A stretch of 64,000 nt of DNA from Haliotis cracherodii (GCF_022045235.1 NW_027266275.1:77190001-77254000), one strand, 5' to 3'; positions 208 through 54,385 are shown, numbered from the stretch's first letter. Made by a program: numbers and translations. The notes: generated by a model not told the origin, from the sequence alone.

Positions 208-3200
208 CTGTACCCTGGTGGGAGGTCAGAGCCTCTGTTTGGATTGCACATATCTACATCCATGTCAATATCCATGAAATCTGAAATATACAAACATCCC
301 ACTAAGGCTGCTCATAATCCAGTGATATCCATCCTACACAGATTGAGAACTGACTATTAATAGTTTGTTATCCCTTGAACAAAACTTTCATCCACCTATG
401 CATCCAGCTTTTGACAATATTCTTATAAGTATACAATAAAGTAATAATTCAACATAAAATCAGTTAGCTGGTTCCTTGCATTTTGTGTCAATATTGATGA
501 CTTTTATTTCCGTTCCTAGTTTCAAATGATTCATGACTCACAAATGCATCACAAGTTACACTGTACTTATATCTGACCATCCTCTATTATACAGGATGTT
601 ATATTTCTCCATTCCACGAGAAATACCCTGGACCCATTCACAACCATAGCTTCGTTTTGAGTTCAGTTCCAGTCACACGACACAAAAAAACGGACGCCCA
701 AACAAACAACACAATATCACCAGTCTTTGTTACGTAGCATAAAACCTTCCTCCCCACTGCCTTACCTCTCACAAAAACATTTGTCAAGCTAAAAATTAAT
801 TAATAACAGACTTCTGATTTATCAAGGGCTCGCACAGTCGAGGCCATGATTTTGAATGTAGATCCTAGCCAAGCTATGGTGACGATTGGGTCCAGGGTAT
901 AATTATGTCATTATACGATTGGGTCCAGGGTATAATTATGTCATTATACGATTGGGTCCAGGATATAATTATGTCATTATACGATTGGGTCCAGGGTATA
1001 ATTATGTCATTATACGATTGGGTCCAGGGTATAATTATGTCATTATACCATTGGGTCCAGGGTATAATTATGTCATTATACCATTGGGTCCAGGGTATAA
1101 TTATGTCATTATATGATTGGGTCCAGGGTATAATTATGTCATAATAGAAGGGAGATGATCGAGGAGGACACCTGACTTCCACACTTACCTGTGTCTTTCC
1201 TTGAGAGTTTTTCCTCTGCAATTTCTGCCAGATAATCTTGCTGGACTTGCACAATCTCGGCACTGGTTTTACAGGCGACGTATCTCTCCAACAGAGCTTT
1301 GTTCACCTTGTAGAAGTTACTTCCCCACTTGAACTTTGACAAGAGAATTGTTCCTAGTTCCTTGAATCCTGTGGAATTTAACCAGATCCTGCAATTATTC
1401 TAATAAATAGTCATGGTAGATACTTTTGAAATAATTACAGTTTTTCTCATTCACAATCGGCAATTTACATGACATAACTTTAAGACTGAAGTTGGTTTCA
1501 ATATAAATTACAATTAAAACATCCCTAGAGTTTCCTGTGGCCATCATCCCTGGGATGTATGAACATGCGAAGAGTTACTTCCCTTAGAACATACACCAAA
1601 GCAATAAAACGTGTTTACATGAACTCAAGTCCACCTTCTTTAGCAATGTAAAATGTAAAGTAAGATGGTATCCCGTAAGTAAATATTGGGATGTAAATAG
1701 TGGGATGAAAATAGCGTAAAGTTTTAGAACAAGGATATAGCATACACATTAACTGTGAGGCATCACTGGGGCTGTATACCTGAGAATGCCTGCTGAGTTC
1801 AGACAGATAGTCCCCAGTATCCAATGCTTGTCATATTTGTGAGTGAGTTTGGTTTTAACGCCTCTTTGAACAATATTTCAGTCATATCACGGTGAGTCAG
1901 CTTGATGTGGGAGGAAAGCCTGAAGTGATGCAGCTCCTAAGATGCTTACCATATTGGTGAAACCCTCGAGCATGGGTATAACATTGACATATAGGAACAT
2001 AATCATCAGGAGTCTGGCATAGGTACCCACGATCACGGGTCCTTCTGTGCCAATTTACGAAGCCATCTTAGCACAAAGGTGAACATAACTCCCATACCTT
2101 AAGAAGACTTACGTCGGTTGTAGCGCCAAGGTTGTCTTTTACAACGGCTTCCTGGTGTTCCACAGGGACACAACTGCTTGTCATAATAATCATTTACCAG
2201 TTGGGATACAGCTGTAACAATGTGTCACCTAGTCCACCGGGGGTGGTCAGACCTGAATGGACACTGTTGTTTGTGCTATAAACTAAAGGTTTATCTGATC
2301 CAGACATGATATTTATCATACTATACAGGCTGCCAGGAGATACATGACTGCAGCATAAAACACTCACTCACTCCTACCTGTGAGATAGAAAGCAGCTGCA
2401 TATGCCTCTACACAAGACAGTTTGCATGGACGGCCATAGTTGACCAGGTTGGTAGCTATGAGATAGGGCAGAAGACGAGGGTGACCGGCCTTCATCTTGG
2501 AGAAGGGTGTGTCTTCCAATCTAGCCCAGGAACAGTCTACCACAGCCAAGCCGCTCTGAGCAATGATGTCACTGTAACCGAAAACCAAGAGATCATAAAT
2601 ATTTTTGAGAACAACAGTTATATGGATGAATGGTTTGTTTGTTGTTTATTGCCACACTCCGCAATATTCCAGCTATAAGATTGCAACCTGTAAATAATCA
2701 CATCTGGACAAGGCAATCCAGTGATTGACATTGCTGTAGTACAATGACACACATTCAATCAAGTGACTGAGCCTTCCGGTCCATTAAGTCACCTGACTCC
2801 CCTCTGACAACCAGCATAGGTTGCCCTGAACCTGGAATCCCAACTAGGAGTCATATGGGCAGATAGATGATAAGCTCTACTAGTTCACAGTTAATACGGT
2901 CCATCTATGTGAAGACAGCATCTTCCACATCGGCAAATATACAGTGAAGTCTCATAATCCGACAATCGGCTTTAATCGACACTAATGATGGGAATCGATT
3001 CAATAAGTGCTATTTAGAACGGTTAATCCGGCAGTCTCACACTCTGACACACCTAATTTGCAACGATTTACCAAAATCACTCATTAATCAGTCTTGTTAA
3101 TCCGACACAATGTATATTTCTTCATGACTATCCATTAGATTATGTACCAGAAAAAAGAACCACCTTACAATGGTCCCATCACAATGTAATATTTCAGTGT

Positions 3201-4064
3201 TCTTGACTGAAACTTGTAAACGACACACACCACTAACCTATCTTCTGGGGAGACACATCTCGTACCAACTGGTGTAAGCACTATTCCATCAAAGCGCTGC
3301 TGAAGTCTCAGTGTGCGGACATAGCCCAGTCGTCCTAGCTTCCTGCCCGAGCATTTCTTGGGGTCACACTGCTCCAAGTCCCACATTGCCAGGGGACACG
3401 GGAATTTGGCCTGAGCAGTGTCTGTGAGATGAACATGACATGTTTCATGGACAAATTGCTAAAATAATAGTTAAAAGTTAGCAAAATTCTAAACATCTTT
3501 GCATACATTGTATAGTTTGCAATACAGTCCAGCTTGATGCCAAGATAGATGAAGAAATATCCTTATTCAATAAAGAACTTATCATTTTTTAAATATCACG
3601 CTTATTCAATTATGAGTTCAGAAAAAAAAGAATGAGCTGAAAATGTGATAATTCTTCACAATCTAATGTCCAGTTAAATGCATAATCTAAGTTTGTTGTC
3701 ATTATGATAACGATTATGATCAAAGAATCTTAATAAGAGTCTACAACACTCTTAATAAGAGTCTACAACACATGATCATTATCAGAAATCATGGCACCAA
3801 TATTATTTAGCTGCATATCTGTTTGCAAATTTTGAGTAACATTTTATTCACATAAATTATGTGATTTATCATGTTAATAAATCCTATACTTATAAATCTA
3901 TAAGTATTACCATCAACAGCTGCTTGAAGATTTTCTGAAAATCTTTCTGGGTCAAATTTTGAAGTTCTGTTTTTCCGATGATCATTTTTTGAATGGTGAT
4001 GACTACCTCCCTTGCCTTGCTTCCCATGTGGTTTATCCTGCTTGTGACCTTTGCTCTTCCCCAT
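208..4064 (-). CDS. TSR3: 18S rRNA aminocarboxypropyltransferase Tsr3; 5 coding exons visible, last exon(s) probably left of the window
   Basis: Exons 4064-3911, 3421-3238, 2571-2378, 1368-1189, 280-208 with GT/AG ends and matching phases. Translation has [58 protein letters not shown] and [11 protein letters not shown], typical of Tsr3. Confidence 0.95.
880..1144. repeat. 33-bp minisatellite, ~8 copies, TSR3 intron 4
   Basis: Unit ttgggtccagggtataattatgtcattatacga; explains ORFs 874..1263, 886..1116 and 905..1144. Confidence 0.95.
1838..2010 (-). mobile_element. Partial copy of tRNA-derived SINE family A
   Basis: Shares gtcagcttgatgtgggaggaaagcctgaagtgatgcag and the (tgag)n tail with 4443-4722. 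Confidence 0.75.
2630..2850 (-). mobile_element. Degenerate copy of non-tRNA retroposon family B
   Basis: (gttt)n tail then gccacactccgcaatattccagctata, as in 57030-57269. Confidence 0.7.
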
Positions 4065-8400: not shown

Positions 8401-11400
8401 ATAGATTCTAGACAAGAAATAACATCCTGACTTGTGGGCAACTTTTAGAACTAAAGAATTCAAGGTCACATGCCCATAGAAGACTGTAATAGTCGATACA
8501 GGACACCTATCAATATGTTCAAGTAGAAAGTTCATTCATGAACTGTTACAGTGTTTTTGTGATGGAACATGTTGCATGTTATTCTCATGATTCCGAGAGT
8601 GACACCTGGTGAACTACTTTGGCGACTTTTTTTATATTTCTTGGTTTACGGATGCGCCACTCTTTCAAGGTCCAAATGTTGAAAAAACATAAAAATACAT
8701 ATTACTCTTTTTTTGTTACCGCAGATCTTTACTTTGAGAAATGCATATAAAGTTCAAACAAAAAAGATTTTGTTTCCTTGTTGAGTGTAAAGCAAAGGGA
8801 AGTCACTCTAATATTTCTAGCTGGGATCCTTCTCTGATACCATCAAAGTGTGTCAAAGCAAAGCACAGTGGTAACCAGTTTAATCGTTGTCCATGCTGCC
8901 AAAATGGCGACGTCTTTCATGCATTTCACCATGACATGAATATTCTTATGTTGCCATTTGTGCACAAGCTGTGTGCCAGGGGCATAATGAAATGTACTTG
9001 AGTTGTATACTGAGTTGCTTTCTTTCGTTACTCCAGAATATTTTTTTAAAGATGTACCTACCTAACATTTTAGGACAAAAGTCAAGTAAAGAAAATTGAG
9101 GAGTTTTTTTTGTTTTTTTTAATTTGCCAGCTCACTATTGAAATGAGTTTGAAATCCGTAAACCAAGAAATTAAAAAGAATGTCGCCATACTGGTGTTTG
9201 AAAAGTTGAATTGCAGTAAGCTCACAATTCCTAACATATGTTTTACACATTTATGCAAAGTTAGACTACAATGTCTTCCCCTGCTTGTTGTCAGGTGTTC
9301 TTCAGGTGCAGCAACCACAGCCATGTCACTAAAGTGTCCGAGCCTCACACCTGTCAGTATCACATGGACTTCCTGACCCCCCTGGTCTGCCACAACCACT
9401 CCATGCTGGTGTACCCCACCCTAGCGCGGGAACTGCAGGGGGAGTGGGACAGGGTTGAGGGGGAGCTTGTCAGGGAGGAAATTACTCAACAGGTAAGACA
9501 TGTGTTGGTATGCATCATGGTGAAGGAATATTGGGAATTCTTTGTCTAGAGTTCTGTCCCTTAGCCATGCCAGAAACCTGTGATTGTTAGTTTAAATCTC
9601 AGATTTGCCCTGAATACAATATAACTGAAATACTTCCACATTAAGCTGACACACTGTGATAAAACTGAAATACTGTTTAAAGCAGCATTACACCAAAACT
9701 TGATGACTATAAGAATTTGGATGTTGAACATTTGAGCACAACACAATTTAGATCAATATGTTTGCTCTATCAGTCTATAGCTGTTGTTGTTTTTCTTCAT
9801 GTCTCTAAAGTATGATGTTTTTATTATGGCATTCATTGTGAATGGTTAATGGTGTGTCTGTTTCAGGGCTACAAGAAAAAATTACGAAAAATATTTGAAG
9901 ATGCTGGATATTATCTGTCAAAAGAAAAACATAAAATACTTTCCAAAGTACCAGAGATTAAAAAGGAAGAACCAGCTAAGCCTGTGGAGGAGCCAAAGGG
10001 AGAGTTCTCATCGATGCAAAAATGTACAGAGGTAAGTATGTATAGCTTACACAACATGCTCTATGTTGACCAACTGACATATTGCTGACCCGTGACATTA
10101 CAGACAGATTGCTGACCTGTGACATGACTGGTAGATTGCTGAGCTGTGAAGTGACTGACAGATTGCTGACCCGTGACATGACTGGTAGATTGCTGAGCTG
10201 TGAAGTGACTGACAGATTGCTGACCTGTGACATGACTGGTAGATTGCTGACCTGTGACATGACTGACAGATTGCTGACCTGTGACATGAGAGACAGATTG
10301 CTGACCTGTGACATGACTGACAGATTGCTGACCTGTGACATGACTGACAGATTGCTGACCTGTGACATGAGAGACAGATTGCTGACCTGTGAAATGAGAG
10401 ACAGATTGCTGACCTGTGACATGACTGGTAGATTGCTGACCTGTGACAGACTGCTCACCTGTCATAACTTACACAACATGCTGTACATTGACCAACTGTG
10501 ACAGATTGCTGACCTGTGACATGTCTGGTAGATTGCTGACCTGTGACATGACAGACAGATTGCTGACCTGTGACATGAGAGACAGATTGCTGACCTGTGA
10601 CATGAGAGACAGATTGCTGACCTGTGACGTGACTGACAGATTGCTGACCTGTGACATGAGAGACAGATTGCTGACCTGTGACGTGACTGACAGATTGCTG
10701 ACCTGTGACATGAGAGACAGATTGCTGACCTGTGACGTGACTGACAGATTGCTGACCTGTGACGTGACTGGTAGATTGCTGACCTGTGACAGTTTGCTGA
10801 CCTGTGACGTGACTGACAGATTGCTGACCTGTGACGTGACTGGTAGATTGCTGACCTGTGACAGTTTGCTGACCTGTGACGTGACTGACAGATTGCTGAC
10901 CTGTGACGTGACTGGTAGATTGCTGACCTGTGACATGAGAGACAGATTGCTGACCTGTGACATGAGAGACAGATTGCTCACATGTGACGTGACTGACAGA
11001 TTGCTGACCTGTGACGTGATTGACAGATTGCTGACCTGTGACGTGACTGATCGATTGCTGACCTGTGACATGAGAGACAGACTGCTGACCTGTGACATGA
11101 CAGACAGATTGCTGACCTGTGACATGACAGACAGATTGCTGACCTGTGACATGACTGATTGCTGACCTGTGACGTGACTGATAGATTGCTGACCTGTGAC
11201 GTGACTGACAGATTGCTGACCTGTGACGGGACTGATAAATTGCTGACCTGTGATGTGACATGACAGATTGCTGACCTGTGACGTGACTGACAGATTGCTG
11301 ACCTGTGATGTGACAGATTGCTGACCTGTGACATGACAGATTGCTGACCTGTGACATGACAGATTGCTGACCTGTGACCTGACTGATAGATTGCTGACCT

Positions 11401-12600
11401 GTGATGTGACTGACAGATTGCTGACCTGTGACATGACAGATTGCTGACCTGTGACGTGACTGATCGATTGCTGACCTGTGACGTGACTGATTGCTGACCT
11501 GTGACTGACAGATTGCTGACCTGTGACATGACAGATTGCTGACCTGTGACGTGACTGAACGATTGCTGACCTGTGACGTGACTGATTGCTGACCTGTGAC
11601 TGACAGATTGTTTTACCTGTGATGTGACAGACAGATTGCTGACCTGTGATGTGACTGACAGATTGCTGACCTGTGACATGACTTATAGATTGCTGACCTG
11701 TGACATGACAGATTGCTGACCTGTGACGTGACCGGTAGATTGCTGACCTGTGACATGACTTGTAGATTGCTGACCTGTGACATGACTTATAGATTGCTGA
11801 CCTGTGACATGACCAGTAGATTGCTGACTTGTGACGTGACTGATAGATTGCTGACCTGTGACATGACCAGTAGATTGCTGACTTGTGACGTGACTGATAG
11901 ATTGCTGACCTGTGACGTGACTGATAGATTGCTGACCTGTGACGTGACTGACAGATTGCTGACCTGTGACATGACAGATTGCTGACCTGTGACAGATTGC
12001 TGACCTGTGACGTGACAGATTGCTGACCTGTGACATGACTGATAGATTGCTGACCTGTGACGTGACTGATAGATTGCTGACCTGTGACATGACAGATTGC
12101 TGACCTGTGACATGACTGATAGATTGCTGACCTGTGACATGACTGGTAGATTGCTGACCTGTGACATGACTGACAGATTGCTGACCTGTGACTTACAGAT
12201 TGCTGACCTGTGACATGACTGATAGATTGCTGACCTGTGACGTGACTGATAGATTGCTGACCTGTGACGTGACTGACAGATTGCTGACCTGTGACGTGAC
12301 TGACAGATTGCTGACCTGTGACATGACTGGTAGATTGCTGACCTGTAACGTGACTGATAGATTGCTGACCTGTGACGTGACTGACAGATTGCTGACCTGT
12401 GACGTGACTGACAGATTGCTGAAAGACTCTGTGAGACAAAGGTGTGTCATTCTGTTTTACAGGAAGTCACCAAGTTACGAGAGGAGCTTGCCCAGCTGAA
12501 AGAAGGGCTGCTAGTACGAGGGATCAAGGAGTTCGAGCTAAGTAATAATAAAGGTGAGGAGGTCAAGGGAGGTGATAACTCCAGCATAATCCGTGTGTAA
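5442..12600 (+). CDS. GNPTG: N-acetylglucosamine-1-phosphotransferase subunit gamma (MRH domain), 8 exons
   Basis: Exons 5442-5496, 5967-6021, 6433-6567, 7149-7232, 8181-8274, 9295-9492, 9867-10031, 12463-12600 (TAA), all GT/AG and in phase. Hydrophobic signal peptide, then [69 protein letters not shown] and IFEDAGY, matching GNPTG. Confidence 0.95.
6161..6385 (+). mobile_element. Non-tRNA retroposon family B, full 5' head, internally deleted
   Basis: Starts gacccgtgaagatccggggtagaataggtcttcagcaacccatgc; ends gctggaatattgctgag...ttaaacaacaaacaaac. Confidence 0.85.
10073..12421. repeat. 27-bp minisatellite (with 23- and 19-bp variants) filling GNPTG intron 7
   Basis: Unit gacagattgctgacctgtgacatgact over ~2.35 kb; source of the low-complexity ORFs between 9976 and 12499. 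Confidence 0.97.
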
Positions 12601-30920: not shown

Positions 30921-31070
30921 TCGACTAGTAAAGAATGATGTTATTGGATGATGAACTTATAATCGAGGAAATACGGTACTGATAATCTTATCTCGTCTTG
31001 TTCATCTAGATGTGTTGTAGTTCAGAGTGAAGTTCTGTTATTTGTGGGCTAGCTTCCACTTTGAAGAACG

Positions 31071-32360
31071 ATGTCTGGAAAAGCGCGAGAGTTCCCCCGC
31101 GTCAAGGCAGTGAGGGCCTATACAATGGCAGCTAGCATGAAGGATCAGGGATCCGACTGCCATGACGTTGTAGACGATCACTGGATTAACGGAGGACTGG
31201 CACCAATCGCCAACCCTATGTCAGGCTATCTTCAATACAGAGCTTTCAGGAAATCCTGGGGAATCAACGCACTTGGAACTTTGGTAGTTGAAGTTGAAGC
31301 AGACGATGGAACTACGGGCGTTGGCGTCACCATCGGCGGAGAACCCGGATGTTACATCGTCGAGCGGCATCTAAGTAGATTTGTTGAAGGTCAAGATCCT
31401 CGTGATGTGGAACTTATGTGGGATCAGATGTTCCGAGCTACACTGAACTATGGGCGGAAGGGGTTGCCTATACAAGCTATAAGTGCCGTGGATTTAGCTC
31501 TGTGGGATCTTCTGGGCCGTTTGCGGAATGAGCCAGTGTATGCGTTGCTTGGCGGGAAAACTAAAGATCGCCTGCCAGTCTATTCAACAACGGGTCGCCC
31601 TGATCTCGCCAAGGAATTTGGGTTTGTCGGAGCGAAGATTCCATGTCCATACGGTCCTGATGAGGGAGATGAAGGATTGAGGAAAAACGTCGAGTTCTTC
31701 AAAGGATGGAGAGAGAAAGTTGGACCCGATTTCCCATTGTCTCTGGACTGTTATATGGCTCTGACAGTCCCTTATGCTATTCGTCTAGCAAAGGAATTAG
31801 AGCCACTTGGTCTGAAATGGATTGAAGAATTTCTGCCTCCAGACGATTATGAAGGCTACGGCGAGGTGAGGAAGGCACTGAGAGGTTCGAAAGTTCTTCT
31901 AACGACAGGAGAACACGAATATACAAGGTATGGATTCAGACAACTTCTTAGTTCAAGATGTGTCGATGTTATTCAACCAGACATCACATGGCTTGGAGGG
32001 ATTACAGAAGCCAGGAGGGTGGTTGCCATGGCGTCAGCGCATGACGTCTTGGTCATTCCCCATGGTTCAAGCGTCTACTCGTATCATCTTCAGTATGCCT
32101 TCAGGAACTGTCCACTAGCGGAATTCATCAATCTGAGTCCGAAAGCCGACAAGATTACGCCCTATTTTGGAGGGATATTTCCTGACGAACCTCTACCTAA
32201 AGATGGCTTCATTGACCTTCCACCAAGAGCTGGATTTGGTGTGACATTGTGTAAGGACAATCTGACCAGACCGTACCAAAGGTCAGAGAAAGAGTCTTCC
32301 CAACAGGCAAACCAGAACATAGAGAGAAAAGTACCAGAGAAGGCCTCTTTTCCATTTTAA
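31071..32360 (+). CDS. L-rhamnonate dehydratase-like protein (RhmD/Lra3 family, mandelate racemase subgroup of the enolase superfamily), single coding exon
   Basis: 429-aa ORF with DCHD..DHWI, IANPMS, SWGINALGTLVVEVEA, SAVDLALWDL, GAKIP, LDCYM, WIEE, TGEHE, QPD, IPHGSSVYSYH and AEF, collinear with E. coli RhmD as recalled. AATAAA at 32512; candidate 5'-UTR intron 30560-31009. Confidence 0.9.
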   Translation: MSGKAREFPRVKAVRAYTMAASMKDQGSDCHDVVDDHWINGGLAPIANPMSGYLQYRAFRKSWGINALGTLVVEVEADDGTTGVGVTIGGEPGCYIVERHLSRFVEGQDPRDVELMWDQMFRATLNYGRKGLPIQAISAVDLALWDLLGRLRNEPVYALLGGKTKDRLPVYSTTGRPDLAKEFGFVGAKIPCPYGPDEGDEGLRKNVEFFKGWREKVGPDFPLSLDCYMALTVPYAIRLAKELEPLGLKWIEEFLPPDDYEGYGEVRKALRGSKVLLTTGEHEYTRYGFRQLLSSRCVDVIQPDITWLGGITEARRVVAMASAHDVLVIPHGSSVYSYHLQYAFRNCPLAEFINLSPKADKITPYFGGIFPDEPLPKDGFIDLPPRAGFGVTLCKDNLTRPYQRSEKESSQQANQNIERKVPEKASFPF

Positions 32361-37200: not shown

Positions 37201-40200
37201 TCGCTGGTCAGCTTTTAGTACAATCATGGGGTAATGGCGAGTTCATTGTAATTAGCCCTAGAACAGGCAAACAATCTAACAGGAGCACTGTTCGAGTGAG
37301 TGTGAGTGTGAATTGGGCTTAACACTGCTTTTAACAGTATTCCAGTCATACCACAGCGTGTCAGCTCAATGTGGAAGGAAAGCCTGAAGTGATGCAGATC
37401 TGACATTTACCACTTTGGTGAAACCCCCAAACCCACAAGCATGATGCTGACAAACCTGGAAACAAAATTCAGCATGTCAGCTCAATGTGGGAGGAAAGCC
37501 TGAAGTGATGCAGATCTGACATTTACCGATTTGGTGGAACCCCAGACCCACAAGCATGGTGCTGACAAACCTGGAAACAAAATTGGGCATTTGAACACAC
37601 AATCATAGGTTTAGGGCTGGCCCAAGGGAGACAACTCTGCACAGTGAATTACCGCGCCTTAGGTGACTAGGCCCTCCATGCCCCAAGCACTGTTCGAAGT
37701 AATCATAGTTCAATGACACATTTTCAAAGTGACCCATTCTAGTACCATAATCTCAGCCGCCATTAAGGTAACCTTTACAAGCACTAGGGTTCTAATGTGC
37801 ACAAGGCTACCAACTTAGTCACATCCGAATGACTTCCCTGATTTGCATTTTCAAACAAAATTGACAGAGGAAGAAACAAAACTTACATTTGTTGTTTGTT
37901 TTATCTTTCTACGATGCTCAGCCATCTGTCTCTCAAACGTTCCCTTGGTAACAACTTTCTGCTTCATCTTGGACTGAGAGTCACCTCGGGTAACGATGGT
38001 GTCTCTCCTGAATATATAGATGGATGGATTTAACAGGAAATATAAACAACATACTAACTGGAACAAGTCAAGTCTTGTTTTAAAGCCACTTTTACCATTA
38101 TTACAGGATTAACCAGTGGACTTCCACAAACACCCCTCTGGCCATCCCCCCCCAAACCCCAAACCATCAACATCAAAAACACAACTTCGCAACTTTGTCA
38201 TATTTACTGTTACAGCAAATGTGTTATGAGATATCTAACAGGTAATGAGAACTCCTACAAATACATTACACAGCTGACATACCTGGAGACGGCCTTCTCC
38301 ATGTCCTGGATCATCTTCTCCTGTTGCTTCATCAGCTGACTGTACCTGACCTGCATCCGATGGATCTCGGACTTCATGGCTCTGATCTCCCCCTGTCCAA
38401 TCTCAGAGTCTACAGCTGCCCGGGTCTCCCTGGCAAGCTGGGTCTTCTTCTCCCACAACATGATTTGACGCCTGAAACAAGAAATATTGGATACTTGAAA
38501 AAACTATATTTTTCCTTTAGCAGAGGATGTTAAAATATGAATAAAATTGCCAACCATCTGTCTCTACTCACTCTGCCTCCACTCAGACTGTTCAGTAGCC
38601 TCACTACCACCTGTCTCTACTCAGACTGTTCAGTAGCCTCCCTACCACTTGTCTCTACTCAGGCTGTTAAGTAGCCTCCATACCACCTGTCTCTACTCAG
38701 ACTGTTCAGTAGCCTCACTACCACCTGTCTCTACTCAGGCTGTTCAGTAGCCTCCCGTCCACCTGTCTCTACTCAGGCTGTTAAGTAGCCTCCCTTCCAC
38801 CTGACTCTACTCAGACTGTTCAGTAGCCTCCCTACCACTTGTCTCCACTCAGGCTGTTAAGTAGCCTCCCTTCCACCTGTCTCTACTCAAGCTGTTAAGT
38901 AGCCTCCCTTCCACCTGACTCTACTCAGGCTGTTAAGTAGCCTCCCTACCACCTGTCTCTACTCAGGCTGTTAAGTAGCCTCCCTACCACTTGTCTCTAC
39001 TCAGGCTGTTAAGTAGCCTCCCTTCCACCTGACTCTACTCAGGCTGTTAAGTAGCCTCCCTACCACTTGTCTCTACTCAGGCTGTTAAGTAGCCTCCCTA
39101 CCACCTGTCTCTACTCAGGCTGTTAAGTAGCCTCCCTACCACTTGTCTCTACTCAGGCTGTTAAGTAGCCTCCCTTCCACCTGACTCTACTCAGGCTGTT
39201 AAGTAGCCTCCCTACCACCTGACTCTACTCAGGCTGTTAAGTAGCCTCCCTACCACTTGTCTCTACTCAAGCTGTTAAGTAGCCTCCCTTCCACCTGACT
39301 CTACTCAGGCTGTTAAGTAGCCTCACTACCACCTGTCTCTACTCAGGCTGTTAAGTAGCCTCCCTACCACTTGTCTCTACTCAGGCTGTTAAGTAGCCTC
39401 CCTTCCACCTGACTCTACTCAGGCTGTTAAGTAGCCTCCCTACCACTTGTCTCTACTCAGGCTGTTAAGTAGCCTCCCTACCACCTGACTCTACTCAGAC
39501 TGTTCAGTAGCCTCCCTACCACTTGTCTCTACTCAGGCTGTTAAGTAGCCTCCATACCACCTGTCTCTACTCAGACTGTTCAGTAGCCTCACTACCACCT
39601 GTCTCTACTCAGGCTGTTCAGTAGCCTCCCGTCCACCTGTCTCTACTCAGGCTGTTAAGTAGCCTCCCTTCCACCTGACTCTACTCAGACTGTTCAGTAG
39701 CCTCCCTACCACTTGTCTCCACTCAGGCTGTTAAGTAGCCTCCCTTCCACCTGTCTCTACTCAAGCTGTTAAGTAGCCTCCCTTCCACCTGACTCTACTC
39801 AGGCTGTTAAGTAGCCTCCCTACCACCTGTCTCTACTCAGGCTGTTAAGTAGCCTCCCTACCACTTGTCTCTACTCAGGCTGTTAAGTAGCCTCCCTTCC
39901 ACCTGACTCTACTCAGGCTGTTAAGTAGCCTCCCTACCACTTGTCTCTACTCAGGCTGTTAAGTAGCCTCCCTACCACCTGTCTCTACTCAGGCTGTTAA
40001 GTAGCCTCCCTACCACTTGTCTCTACTCAGGCTGTTAAGTAGCCTCCCTTCCACCTGACTCTACTCAGGCTGTTAAGTAGCCTCCCTACCACCTGACTCT
40101 ACTCAGGCTGTTAAGTAGCCTCCCTACCACTTGTCTCTACTCAAGCTGTTAAGTAGCCTCCCTTCCACCTGACTCTACTCAGGCTGTTAAGTAGCCTCAC

Positions 40201-43200
40201 TACCACCTGTCTCTACTCAGGCTGTTAAGTAGCCTCCCTACCACTTGTCTCTACTCAGGCTGTTAAGTAGCCTCCCTTCCACCTGACTCTACTCAGGCTG
40301 TTAAGTAGCCTCCCTACCACTTGTCTCTACTCAGGCTGTTAAGTAGCCTCCCTTCCACCTGACTCTACTCAGGCTGTTAAGTAGCCTCCCTACCACTTGT
40401 CTCTACTCAGGCTGTTAAGTAGCCTCCCTACCACTTGTCTCTACTCAGGCTGTTAAGTAGCCTCCCTTCCACCTGTCTCTACTCAGGCTGTTCAGTAGCC
40501 TCACTACCACCTGTCTCTACCCACTCTACCTCCACCAGACTGTTCAGTAGCCTCACTACCACCTGTCTCTACTCACTCTGCCTCCACCAGACTGTTCAGT
40601 AGCCTCTCCTTCTCCTCCTTCACAGAGTCCAGATTGTCCTGCATCTCTATGGATGATCTCTCTGCTTCCTTCAAGTTGGCGATGAAGTCATTCTCAAGCA
40701 ACGATGTGCCCTGCTCAAGTTCCACCTCATAGCCCTTCTCTCTGTGTAGCAGTGTGTTCAACTTGATCATGTCATTCTGCATGTTGCGGATGTGGCGGTC
40801 AATATCATATGTCTCACGTCTCTGCTGGTCAATGTCATCTGTTGATTGATATCACAAAGTATGTAGCAATGTCAACTGCCATGTTCGGCGCCAAGTTTGG
40901 TGCCATGTTTGGGCAACTGTCATGCTTAGTGCCATTTCTGGCAACAGTGGATGCAAGTTTACACAATGTTTTTCACAACAATGTAATTGTTCCAAATTAG
41001 AGCAGATAGATGTTGTTCGTTAAAGTATTGTGAATCATTGTCTTCAGAACAATATTATGATATGATGACACAATTACACTAGTGTTCCCACAGGGTCACA
41101 CAAGCCACTGTGCGCATCTATTTCCCTCATCATTAGTAGGATGTAGTTGACAAGGGTGGACACAGAACATCAACAATGAATGACATGGGTTTCTTGTAGG
41201 CACGTACAGCAACACTATATAATGATCAGTTAAAGATTATATCCAACTGTTAAAGATTATATCCAACAGTTAAAGATTATATCCAACAGTTAAAGATTGT
41301 ATCAAACAGTTAAAGATTATATCAAACACATTCCATCAACAACCCATATAACGTCTATCCCAACATACGCTCAGTCCTGATCTTCTTCTGTAAGAGGATG
41401 GTGAGCTGCTTCTTGTGCTTCTCCACGTCCTGCGACTGGTCTTCCTTGTCCTTGGTCAGTCTGACCAGCTCACTCTGCTGCCGCAGCCACATCTGCTGCA
41501 GTTCTGTGATCTCCTGCTGCGTCCCGTCTATCGACTTCTGCAGGGAGTTGATGGTGACCTCCAGCGGACCCAGCTCCACACCCTGACAAACAAGGCATGA
41601 GGACTTATAGGGAGAGACACAGTTGGGGCTAATGCCAATTTTAACAGTACATCAGTAACATCACAATGTGTCAGCTTAGTGTGAGGTCAAAACATAAAGT
41701 CTGAATTGGACAGATTCCACTGTACATCTAAATACACTCCTGGAAAGGAAGCCTATGAACATCTCCAGTAGACAGTATCCCATGTATTGAGAACTTTCCC
41801 CAGCAGAGACATGTCCAGTAGACATCACCCCAAGTATTGAGAACTTACCCCAGCAGAGACATGTCCAGTAGACATCACCCCAAGTATTGAGAACTTACCC
41901 CAGCAGAGACATGTCCAGTAGACATCACCCCAAGTATTGAGAACTCACCCCAGCAGAGACATGTCCAGTAGACATCACCCCGACTATTGAGAATTTACCC
42001 CAGCAGAGACATGTCCAGTAGACATCACCCCAAGTATTGAGAACTTGCCCCAGCAGAGTTGATCATAGACATCACCCCAAGTATTGAGAACTTACCCCAG
42101 CAGAGTTGATCATGTGCTCGAGCTTCTTGTTGAACTGATCAATCAGATTCTGTTTGCGTTCAATGATAGCATTTCTCTTGATAATCTCATTCTCACTCTT
42201 GGAGATGATGTCATTCTTCTGGCGGATCTCATCGTCTAGACCCTGCAGGATCTTCTTCAGTCTCTCTGTCCTGGCCTTCACATTGGACGTGTCCAGAGCA
42301 TTCCGGGCAATGGTGTTCTCTACCTCCGCCATTTGGGTCTCCTGAAAACACAAACACATAAGTTGATAAAATAGATGCAAGTTACATACCGAAACAACAG
42401 CATCAGCACCTTTCTCAAACGGTTTAGAAAAAAGTGCATGATCAGTTAGTGATTTGTTGCTATTTACAGTGTGAAATAACTAATATTTGTGACCTTTTCA
42501 AATACATAGGGTGAGTGTGAGTGTGAATTGGGCTCAGCACTACTACACTGAACTGCAGAAGAATGAGGAGAATTGATGCAGACATTTGACATTTACCACT
42601 TCAGAGAAACAATTACAGGTATAGATGGTCCTGACAAACCAAGAATCATACTCAGGGAAAATCCAGTGTTTCTTGCAAGCCTCAAACCCAACACTTGTGG
42701 TGCCTTAGTCAACAGGACAACCATTTGTGAATTATTATTGCTTATAAGAGAATAACTGCTAACTATTATCATGATCATAATTCATATGATTGCCAATCGA
42801 TTGCCTGGATGTAAAAGCCATGAGGCTTGCCAGTTGTCTGATGGGAAGCATGTGGTGTGTGACATCTGTATTTGTATTTTGGTGGTTGCTAGAATACTTG
42901 AATGAACATTATAGACAAAAACTTTGTTGGTCTTTGTCTAAACCTAAATACTATCCAGGTGAACTCACCAGACTCTTGGTGAGGTCCCTCATCTTTTTGG
43001 TCAGTTTCTTGGTGTACTGGGAAGCCTTGTCCATGGTCAGCTGGTCCCGGATCTTCTCCATGATCTCATCCTCCAGCTTCACCTTCTCCTGGTACTCTCG
43101 CTCGATCTGCTTCCTCAGCCCATTCAACTCATTCATGCGCAGGGTCTTGTCCTGCAACAGAACAGATGGTGATAAGGTACGATTCCACAGTTTTATTCTC

Positions 43201-52200: not shown

Positions 52201-54385
52201 GGGTTAACATCACTTATTTCTCTATATGTTATATGTGTATGTTATATGTTCACACTGCTCGTTTATTTTCTTGTGAAAATGCCTGTTTGTGAATCATTGT
52301 TGTGCGTGCGTTGTAACCATGTTTTGCTCTTTGTTCTTAGAATAAAAAAATGTCTGACGTGGAAATGTCCCTGGTTTCAACCCCCTCTACCCCTGCTCCT
52401 CGGAGTTGCGGGATCTCAGTGAGCTAGCACTATAAATTGGCATCAGTCTGGACTAGTACATGTACAAGCAGCCACACAAACATACAAATGTACATGCATG
52501 TTGCTATATATAAGTGCAATAATCTTGGACGCGACGTTAAACACAATTTCACCTCACCTATTACTACTTACTGACTTTTATTAACATGATTAGTAATTAA
52601 ATAGTTTGGTTTACAGGACAATAATTCAACAACTGTATCATTCATGATTATCATTTGCTCATCATACTGTTGCACAAATCATACATTACAAAATAAGGCA
52701 TATCAAAGTCAATACAACTATTTAGACCAGTGATGCTGTTCAGATTGCTTGGAAAATATAAAAAAATGTAATACCTCTTTTAGAGCTTCTGTTGTCACCT
52801 TGGAGACAACATCCTGAACTTTAGAAGAAGAGGGTCTGGAAAACAGGAAAATATAAAGGATGAGAATGAACATGAAATTGAAAAATATATCAGAAACATA
52901 AAAGCAAAGATCATGGGAGTGAATTGGTGTTTAATTAGGGTTTTATCAGTCTTGTGATTTCCACTTGCATGGAGTCAGGGAAATACATTGAAAAAATACA
53001 TGAAAGATCTGACGTCCAAGTAATGAGAGTAACATTGTGAACACATTAACACCATACCTTGCCAGTTAAATGGTATTGAACACAATGTGCCTGTTTAGAA
53101 GACTCAAGCAGTGATAGAAACTAACATTTTAGTCCACTAGTCCTTCTACTCAGTTGACGATGTAACATGTACGTGAGACAGGTTTTGTTACTTGTAAGAG
53201 TAACTATCTGACTGCATGTGCATGGACAACGGATTTCTGGACAAAAACGGGTCTACAATAATGATAACATGATGATGATAACATATAAGAAAACCCTTAA
53301 ATATTGCAAATGTCTACTTGTCCTTATACCTGTTGGGCAGTTTGGCAAGGACTATAGGACTAGTGCCAATTTCTATCACTGATGTGTCATCAAGTTCTAG
53401 GTTGGGAAGAATGTTTAAAAGGGTGTCATCAAGTTCTAGGTTGGGAAGAATGTTTAAAAGGGTGTCATCAAGTTCTAGGTTGGGAAGAATGTTTAAAAGG
53501 GTGTCATCAAGTTCTAGGTTGGGAAGAATGTTTAAAAGGGTGTCATCAAGTTCTAGGTTGGGAAGAATGTTTAAAAGGGTGTCATCATGTTTTGTACTGA
53601 GAAGGATGTTTCAGGGGGTGTCATCAAGTTCAATGTTTGTCATTATCTGTACAATACTGAACATCGGGCAATTCTTCTACCCTTAAGACACAGCACGAGT
53701 GTTATGGATTGTAAACAAACAGCAGAGGCAATCACTTCATTATATGCACTACATGTTAAATACACTGTTATTTATGTTTGTTAGCCAAGTAGTAATGGAA
53801 CATTGTGAAATGAAAAGTATGTCATCCACAGACTTTCACAATGGCAGATGCCATGCTGGGTTGTTTGTTTGGTTTTTGTTTAACCCTGCACTCAACAATA
53901 TTTCTATATGACGGCGGTCTGTAAATTATCAAGTCTGGACCAGACAATCCAGTGATTGGTATCATACGCATCGATCTAGGCAATTTGGATTCGAGGACCA
54001 CGCAATCCCGTTAGTCTTTAATATTTTCAAACCTAAGTCCTTGCTTATTAGGTTGGACAGTGTGAAATCCACTTGCCAAAAATTCTTTAACCTTACTTAT
54101 TTTTTGTGAGAATCAGACGGAAAGAAAGGTAACAGCAGTAAGATGTACCTAGCTCTTACATTATTTACTGTGATAATCAGAAAGTCAGTCTCTTGGAAAA
54201 TAAATTCATCACTATCTCCGTCGCCCATTTGTCATAAATGTTACCTTTGACACAGATCTGGACACCATTATTATTGAAAAAAGAACATGCATAGTTTCAG
54301 ATTTAAAGCTATAAACAAATGCAAGATATTTTCGTAAATATATCCGCAATGAGTTCACAACAAACCTTTCCTGCTTGTCCGCCAT
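34223..54385 (-). CDS. CCDC40: Coiled-coil domain-containing protein 40 (axonemal 96-nm ruler), 20 exons
   Basis: Exons 54385-54366, 52835-52775, 51446-51341, 50600-50097, 47168-47118, 46615-46329, 45977-45894, 45687-45468, 44797-44640, 44487-44347, 44258-44155, 43795-43552, 43151-42969, 42341-42096, 41582-41369, 40838-40577, 38471-38283, 38007-37887, 36293-36135, 34471-34223; phases consistent throughout. Hallmarks [63 protein letters not shown] and [11 protein letters not shown]. Exons 1-5 rest on phase and composition only. Confidence 0.92.
35607..35999. mobile_element. hAT-like MITE
   Basis: TIR tagggctgggacg / cgtcccagcccta; degenerate 8-bp TSD cgctgaac / cgttgagc. Confidence 0.7.
36527..36961. 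repeat. 57-bp minisatellite, ~7.5 copies, inside a family B retroposon (~36379-36988, -)
   Basis: Unit cctgaccacatgatatacttggtcatctcttatgacctgcatgagctgctggga..., a diverged version of the family B segment cctgaccacccgatcccgttagtcgcctcttacgacaagcatgggttgctgaagacct. Confidence 0.9.
37296..37685 (-). mobile_element. Family A SINE with internal ~115-bp duplication and TSD
   Basis: gtcagctcaatgtgg...ctgacaaacctggaaacaaaatt occurs twice; TSD agcactgttcga at 37284-37295 and 37686-37697. Confidence 0.85.
38556..40576. repeat. 38-bp minisatellite, ~53 copies, filling CCDC40 intron 16, derived from the exon 16/donor junction
   Basis: Unit ctgtctctactcaggctgttaagtagcctccctaccac; period checked at 39001/39039. 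Confidence 0.97.
41229..41328. repeat. 20-bp tandem repeat x5, CCDC40 intron 15
   Basis: gttaaagattatatccaaca repeated. Confidence 0.9.
41757..42105. repeat. 50-bp minisatellite, ~7 copies, each containing the CCDC40 exon 14 donor junction
   Basis: Unit ccccagcagagacatgtccagtagacatcaccccaagtattgagaactta; starts at 41821, 41871, 41921, 41971, 42021. Confidence 0.95.
44818..45215. repeat. (TGAG)n microsatellite with gttgttca interruptions
   Basis: Direct reading; source of the THSL-repeat ORFs. Confidence 0.95.
46798..47072 (+). mobile_element. Full-length family A SINE with TSD
   Basis: Collinear with the reverse complement of 4443-4722; TSD tcacactctcac at 46786-46797 and 47073-47084. Confidence 0.88.
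50417..50597 (-). repeat. Coding 33-bp repeat ([10 protein letters not shown][D/A]) x~5.5 in CCDC40 exon 4
   Basis: gctgatgttggacgtgaatcagccttaggggta repeated in frame. Confidence 0.9.
51589..52557 (+). mobile_element. Composite SINE carrying a ~590-bp LTR-like insert between two copies of its 3' segment
   Basis: 16-bp TSD ctattactacttactg at 51573-51588 and 52558-52573; 51691-51819 repeated at 52413-52549; insert starts TGT (51820) and has AATAAA at 52341. Confidence 0.7.
53110..53381. mobile_element. MITE with cagtgatagaaa TIRs; shorter inverted relative at 63574-63703
   Basis: cagtgatagaaa...tttctatcactg; shared internal ttgggcagtttggcaaggactataggactagtg. Confidence 0.7.
53383..53630. 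repeat. 39-bp minisatellite x~6 directly after the MITE, CCDC40 intron 1
   Basis: gtgtcatcaagttctaggttgggaagaatgtttaaaagg repeated. Confidence 0.93.

What the first reader, a model, noticed from the sequence alone, without database searches (positions are those of the whole stretch)
38556..40606. 2-kb intronic satellite built from its own exon/donor junction, with the splice donor deleted from the amplified unit
Seen on the sense (-) strand: exon 16 ends gaggctactgaacagtctggtggaggcaga|gtgagtagagacaggtggtagt. The 38-bp unit is gaggctacttaacagcctgagtagagacaggtggtagg, i.e. exon tail fused to intron start with gtggaggcagagtg removed. The nearest long copy (~40510-40552) has the donor changed to gtgggt; only the farthest copy (~38558-38601) keeps gcaga|gtgagt. 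Inference: tandem duplication across a splice junction seeded the array, and a donor-less derivative was the one able to expand to ~53 copies. This would be a route for satellite birth and intron growth under splicing selection.
Basis: partly seen in the sequence, partly recalled or inferred. Interest (0 to 1): 0.7.

Follow-up and report, generated by a model that had tools for sequence, protein, structure and literature searches.

The report
Abalone CCDC40 splice-junction "mirage" minisatellite
The end of one exon of an abalone cilia gene and the start of the next intron are repeated 53 times in that intron, and 50 copies have lost the splice signal; an equally large repeat in another gene of the same genome keeps its signal, so the loss is likely a chance deletion that spread, in a repeat type already known from lancelets and human genes.

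Summary
Intron 16 of abalone CCDC40 (minus strand) holds 53 tandem units copied from the exon 16/donor junction: two of 52 bp, fifty of 38 bp lacking 14 nt that include the GT, and a last copy with an intact donor. The unit occurs only here. Spliced contigs from two RNA-like runs use the first donor. Such arrays are known (amphioxus "mirages"; human F7, CBS, 6-16 VNTRs), and this scan has noted them before, also in this genome. Donor loss is not needed for expansion. In 18 dynein genes of this genome 13 of 521 donors seed an array; 121 of 130 downstream copies keep GT, and changes at GT are not in excess (5 seen, 5.8 expected). An INTS5 intron carries a 40-bp array of 55 copies, with GT kept at 50 of 52 downstream sites counted. 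A second CCDC40 junction array keeps GT in 4 of 6. Twenty-three of the 53 units come from one 874-bp block duplication. Most likely a microhomology deletion spread by ordinary array turnover. Selection at this unusually weak donor is not excluded. Full array length was not checked with long reads.

The parts
40577..40838 (-). CCDC40 coding exon 16; its last 30 nt are the exonic part of the repeat unit
   Evidence: tblastn with H. rufescens and H. rubra CCDC40, boundaries, first coding exon at 54385
40571..40579 (-). Authentic donor aga|gtgagt (GT at 40576-40575); weak, 9th percentile of 521 abalone donors
   Evidence: phase-2 join gives LVEAE-RQIML as in the homologues; spliced contigs in X12 and X14; PWM score 5.0 bits
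40555..40606 (-). Unit 1, 52 bp: 30 nt of exon plus 22 nt of intron (template of the array)
40503..40554 (-). Unit 2, 52 bp, donor copy changed at +4 (aga|gtgggt; this type is 0 of 521 real donors)
38603..40502 (-). Fifty 38-bp units lacking 14 nt that include the donor GT; the deletion ends share a 2-nt TG microhomology; units closest to the template lie near the edges and near the block junction
38615..40353 (-). Higher-order block duplication: 40353-39489 equals 39479-38615 (865 bp exact, offset 874 = 23 units); next-longest exact match at any other unit offset is 162 bp
38558..38602 (-). Last unit with an intact donor copy aga|gtgagt (GT at 38571-38570), continuous with the original intron
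   Evidence: a contig running from this copy into the residual intron is in X1, X5, X7 and X11
38472..38557 (-). Residual original intron (86 bp) with the only strong acceptor (13.0 bits; best other AG in the intron 4.1)
38283..38471 (-). CCDC40 coding exon 17
41759..42105 (-). Second junction-spanning array in the same gene (50 bp x 7, exon 14 donor at 42095); 4 of 6 downstream copies keep GT, 3 score as high as the real donor. Internal control

Best explanation
This is a single-locus minisatellite copied from the CCDC40 exon 16/intron 16 junction, in which a 14-nt deletion that removed the donor likely arose by microhomology slippage and likely spread by ordinary, selectively neutral array turnover, while assembled transcripts use the first donor. 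Shown: the unit anatomy, uniqueness to this locus, use of the first donor in two contig sets, the block duplication, and donor retention in control arrays. Step 1 (inferred): a 52-bp segment across the junction duplicated in tandem, leaving the reading frame and first donor intact. Step 2 (inferred from the 2-nt TG microhomology): a 14-nt deletion arose in an internal copy; a separate 11-nt deletion of the same G/T-rich stretch gives a 41-bp unit seen in other runs. Step 3 (inferred): slippage and unequal exchange homogenised the interior and spared the two edges, which stay anchored to unique flanks; this explains why long units survive only at the ends. Step 4 (shown in this assembly, age inferred): one 874-bp block duplication took the array from about 30 to 53 units. 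Downstream donor copies are likely ignored because the most upstream site wins, as shown experimentally for human F7.
For: Control arrays keep donors: 121 of 130 downstream copies in 13 dynein arrays; distinct substitutions at GT 5 vs 5.8 expected, in the 9-mer 22 vs 26.3. The INTS5 array (G000:C5:32774446-32776644, 40 bp x 55) keeps GT at 50 of 52 downstream sites counted, 39 identical to the first; it was found through a motif on the opposite strand, so it was not picked for this donor. Second CCDC40 array: 4 of 6. Junction arrays are not shorter than other arrays (P = 0.80). Retention does not track donor strength (rho = -0.04, n = 16). A random 14-nt deletion in a 52-bp unit would hit the GT 29% of the time. 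The majority short units gained a donor-like gtg|gtaggg site (6.6 bits vs 2.3 at the same place in unit 1). An intact distal donor persists in 4 of 4 DNA-type runs. Precedent: PMC1557585 (abstract, introduction, discussion read) and PMC3087553 (passages read).
Against: This array is the extreme of the 16 compared: it has the weakest authentic donor (5.0 bits) and the lowest retention (2 of 52). Three different donor-impairing variants occur here: the +4 change, the 14-nt deletion, and a +5 change in the 41-bp unit, which without it would carry a donor stronger than the real one (10.2 bits). One dynein array also has GT lost in 3 of 5 copies, all internal. None of the 13 dynein junction arrays reaches 40 copies (about 1 expected). 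The RNA evidence is assembled contigs only, which drop rare isoforms.
Confidence: 0.72

Rival explanations
1. Locus-specific selection: because this donor is weak and CCDC40 is needed for motile cilia and sperm flagella (recalled knowledge), extra intact donors would leak into stop-containing transcripts, so donor-dead units were favoured here even though most arrays tolerate donors.
For: Weakest donor and lowest retention of 16 arrays (noticed after the fact, about 1 in 16 by chance). A stop codon follows the donor at once. Three donor-impairing variants are seen.
Against: The next two weakest donors (6.0 and 6.4 bits) keep GT in 8 of 8 and 6 of 6 copies. No correlation of strength and retention overall. 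The intact distal donor persists in all 4 DNA-type runs. X1 holds an internal long unit that still reads as a donor after a 2-nt loss. F7 experiments show that identical and even stronger downstream sites do not compete (PMC1557585).
Confidence: 0.15
2. General rule: junction-derived arrays can grow large only after losing the donor.
For: This array fits it. No dynein junction array reaches 40 copies (0 of 13).
Against: INTS5 array of 55 copies with donors kept; arrays of 26-27 copies with 26 of 26 and 25 of 26 GT; 25 pseudo-sites in human 6-16 and 15-20 units in CBS (introduction of PMC1557585).
Confidence: 0.03
3. The array is real but its length is inflated by assembly: the 874-bp block would be two alleles or reads stacked, and the true array about 30 units.
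For: 865 bp exact duplicate against at most 162 bp at other offsets. No laid contig spans the array.
Against: The unit joining the two blocks differs by one base from a pure recombinant of its neighbours (read from the unit list), which fits a real exchange better than an exact re-use of one read. Recent unequal exchange gives the same picture.
Confidence: 0.1

Closest known systems
Amphioxus 'mirage' minisatellites (Adh3, globins BflGb6 and BflGb9), PMC3087553 (passages on mirages read)
   Same: Tandem copies spanning an exon-intron boundary; normal splicing; length instability; concerted evolution inside the cluster with edge units excluded; 'many, but not all' units carry splice signals.
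   Different: Here only 2 of 52 downstream units keep the GT, and the majority unit is a deletion derivative 14 nt shorter than the template.
Human F7 IVS7 37-bp VNTR; also 6-16 intron 2, CBS IVS13, lamin B2, PDGF intron 4, PMC1557585 (abstract, introduction, discussion read)
   Same: First monomer holds the authentic donor; similar unit size; the first site is the one used (F7, lamin B2, PDGF).
   Different: In F7 every copy repeats the donor exactly (5-9 units); here the interior has lost it and the array is longer. In 6-16 and CBS the nearest pseudo-sites are also used; no such use was seen here, in contigs only.
Other abalone junction arrays found here (13 in dynein heavy-chain genes, one in INTS5, one more in CCDC40)
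   Same: Same origin, unit size 31-89 bp, same genome.
   Different: 14 of these 15 keep GT in at least half of their copies.

Membership tests
Mirage / junction-spanning minisatellite | Head-to-tail units whose template spans an exon-intron boundary of the host gene | tested here: met
Mirage / junction-spanning minisatellite | Locus-specific unit | tested here: met
   53 of 53 genome-wide matches at this locus
Mirage / junction-spanning minisatellite | Regular splicing at the authentic site | tested here: met
   spliced contigs in 2 of 2 RNA-like runs laid (X12, X14); rare isoforms not visible in contigs
Mirage / junction-spanning minisatellite | Interior homogenised, edge units excluded | tested here: met
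   long units only at the two ends; template-like short units at the edges and near the block junction
Mirage / junction-spanning minisatellite | Length variation between alleles or individuals | tested here: inconclusive
   unit types differ between runs (41-bp unit in X1, X12 and by period in X7; the commonest type here is missing at the scored place in X5, X7, X11); length cannot be read from these contigs
F7-type VNTR with reiterated pseudo-donors | Every unit repeats the authentic donor | tested here: not met
   2 of 52 downstream units keep the GT, 1 of 52 the full 9-mer
Satellite DNA family (multi-locus or very long arrays) | Unit present at other loci or in very long blocks | tested here: not met
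   single 2-kb locus

The most novel reading that the evidence does not exclude
Splice donors are hot spots of minisatellite birth in abalone (13 of 521 dynein donors, 2-3 times the uniform expectation, with no excess at acceptors), and at the weakest donors splicing selection picks which unit variant takes over. This array, with the weakest donor of 16 and three separate donor-impairing variants, would be a case of selection steering concerted evolution, and thousands of such arrays would make the idea testable genome-wide.
Probability: 0.12. Interest if true: 0.55.

Novelty: new member of a known kind. Interest (0 to 1): 0.2.

Why it matters
As a single locus it matters little: it is one of many junction-derived minisatellites in this genome, and it grew a 100-bp intron about twenty-fold with no sign of changing the protein. 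The useful result is the control set. About 2.5% of sampled abalone donors seed such arrays and 93% of copies keep the GT, which argues that the first-donor rule makes them nearly free. That makes abalone a natural large-scale test of how 5' splice sites are chosen among identical neighbours. If weak donors proved to purge their copies, it would show splicing selection acting on repeat turnover.

Tried and rejected
No run on record as RNA was listed; six are RNA by guess and all 18 are kept as contigs. The two laid behave as spliced RNA. No contig joining the distal donor (38571) to exon 17 was listed; contigs show presence, not absence. The PWM scores cag|gtgg(a/c/t) sites in the short units above the real donor, but that type is 0 of 521 real donors, so I do not treat them as functional. 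G-quadruplex drive rejected: G4Hunter-type maximum 0.96 in 25-nt windows, no three-tier motif. A decoy acceptor or pseudo-exon inside the array rejected: best AG 4.1 bits vs 13.0. A dispersed family rejected. The alignment printed 4 of 52 GT kept for this array; two of those rows are a misplaced gap in one 38-bp type, and the correct count is 2 of 52. One seed donor was off by one base; the final matrix was trained on the 521 dynein introns only. 120 of 641 dynein introns were dropped as low confidence; they held 5 more possible donor arrays and 1 acceptor array, not counted. The triple-donor pattern gave 404 matches vs 141 for the reversed control, with 100 rows listed. I fetched 11 of the 16 arrays listed and skipped 5 that looked like simple repeats. 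Pfam hit the upstream frame in 3 of 11 (one below its cut-off), and INTS5 was found on the other strand of a fourth. Those picked for a donor motif cannot estimate retention. Six paper searches gave no listing on abalone junction minisatellites or on selection against donor copies; the library lacks most subscription journals. No supplements were read.

Full report
Host gene. The window's minus strand carries CCDC40 of an abalone. The best named hits are Haliotis rufescens and H. rubra CCDC40, and tblastn lays out the exons. It joins exon 17 (from 38471) in phase 2 across a 2,105-bp intron.

Observation. The array has 53 units: two of 52 bp, fifty of 38 bp and a last partial unit that runs into 86 bp of ordinary intron. 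The 38-bp unit is the 52-bp template minus 14 nt that include the GT. The deletion can be placed at three equivalent offsets, that is, with a 2-nt TG microhomology. Unit 2 has aga|gtgggt and the last unit keeps aga|gtgagt at 38571. All this is as described. The unit head matches 53 places in the 1.18-Gb genome, all here. Removing the array leaves an intron of about 100 bp. Twenty-three units come from one block duplication: 865 bp are identical at an offset of 874 bp, while no other unit offset gives more than 162 bp. The copy number therefore does not reflect fifty separate gains.

Other individuals. Both ends of the array were laid on public contigs; none spans it. All four DNA-type runs (X1, X5, X7, X11; three organism labels) hold the repeat, 38-bp units, and a contig running from an exon-tail-plus-donor copy into the residual intron. 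The deletion and the intact distal donor are therefore shared across the labelled organisms. Unit types differ between runs. X1 and X12 show a 41-bp unit, an 11-nt deletion between two GTG repeats that carries ctg|gtgaat, and X7 shows a 41-bp period. The extra base in the last copy is present in one X1 contig and absent in another. Two runs that behave as RNA (X12, X14) give spliced contigs from exon 16 at 40577 to 38471. No joint from the distal donor was listed, but contigs drop rare forms.

Control set. To test the claim that only donor-less units can expand, I located 18 dynein heavy-chain gene regions in the same genome, fetched 1.2 Mb, and called introns with a profile built from 32 templates. 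Of 641 introns, 521 were kept as high confidence. Tandem arrays span 13 of 521 donors and 5 of 521 acceptors. Uniform placement predicts 6.1 and 6.0 (P about 0.01 for donors; 10 vs 3.0 for arrays of five or more copies, P about 0.001). This null is rough and ignores base composition. In the 13 donor arrays 121 of 130 downstream copies keep GT. Distinct substitutions fall on the GT 5 times (5.8 expected) and in the 9-mer 22 times (26.3 expected). Copy numbers match other arrays (P = 0.80), although none of the 13 reaches 40 copies, where about 1 is expected. A second junction array in CCDC40 itself (41759-42105) keeps GT in 4 of 6 copies.

A size-matched counter-example. A pattern search led to G000:C5:32774446-32776644, a 40-bp array of 55 copies. 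On its plus strand it begins at the end of an INTS5 exon. The H. rufescens protein, a database prediction, runs from this exon into the next with no insertion. Of 53 sites counted, 51 keep GT and 40 read cag|gtaaat, the first site included. The array was found through a motif on the opposite strand, so it was not chosen for keeping this donor. Donor loss is thus not a condition for reaching about 53 copies.

What speaks for selection at this locus. The real donor is weak (5.0 bits, 9th percentile) and a stop codon follows at once. Among the 16 arrays compared, it has both the weakest donor and the lowest retention, but there is no overall correlation (rho = -0.04), and the next two weakest keep all their GTs. 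Three donor-impairing variants occur here, and the 41-bp unit would carry a 10.2-bit donor without its +5 change. Against this, a 14-nt deletion has a 29% chance of hitting the GT, the intact distal donor has lasted, and 25 short units gained gtg|gtaggg, a type used by 5 of 521 real donors.

Mechanism. Most likely (0.72): duplication across the junction, a microhomology deletion in an internal copy, neutral spread by slippage and unequal exchange that spares the edges, and a late block duplication. Downstream donors are likely ignored because the most upstream site is chosen. Locus-specific selection gets 0.15, inflated length 0.10, and the general rule 0.03.

Known systems. PMC3087553 (passages) describes amphioxus mirages: tandem copies of exon-intron boundaries, regular splicing, many but not all units with splice signals, and edges excluded from homogenisation. 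[quoted passage not shown] This array meets the mirage features tested. It fails the F7-type feature that every unit repeats the donor. Earlier notes of this scan list many such arrays, several in this genome; these are unchecked AI notes and were used as leads only.

Verdict. Real and correctly described, a new member of a known kind whose odd feature is a donor-deleted majority unit. The proposed selection rule is refuted as a requirement and unsupported as a trend. Interest 0.2.

Noticed in passing
G000:C5:32774446-32776644 (L143:3446-5644, + strand): INTS5 intron with a 40-bp x 55 donor-spanning array; 51 of 53 sites counted keep GT.
   Followed up: yes
18 dynein heavy-chain regions of G000 (L023-L142): Donor-spanning arrays are about 2-3 times more frequent than uniform placement predicts (13 vs 6.1), acceptor-spanning ones are not (5 vs 6.0). 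The asymmetry is unexplained and the null is not composition-matched.
   Followed up: partly
G000:C4 near 26398924 (+), dynein gene: 77-bp junction array in which the edge copies keep GT and three internal copies read GA; a small parallel to the CCDC40 pattern.
   Followed up: partly
L144, L147, L148, L149, L150, L151, L152: Further arrays with many donor-like copies that start at apparent exon ends (Pfam EGF_CA, SapB_1 below cut-off, Glyco_hydro_47 for three of them; the rest have no Pfam hit), 6 to about 35 copies.
   Followed up: partly
window 10073-12422: 27-bp x 89 array fills nearly all of a plus-strand intron, starting about 40 bp after the donor and ending about 40 bp before the acceptor; not junction-derived.
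   Followed up: no
window 50098-50601: CCDC40 exon 4 encodes an 11-residue SRPTSA-type repeat region whose copy number differs between this genome, H. rufescens and H. rubra.
   Followed up: no
window 38060: Runs X1 and X7 both carry a 17-nt insertion in intron 17 that this assembly lacks.
   Followed up: no
window 1142-3458 (-), 9265-9546 (+), 31065-32357 (+): Neighbouring genes by Pfam: Ribo_biogen_C with Fer4_RLI, a PRKCSH_1 domain exon, and a 431-residue uninterrupted mandelate racemase/enolase-superfamily frame.
   Followed up: no
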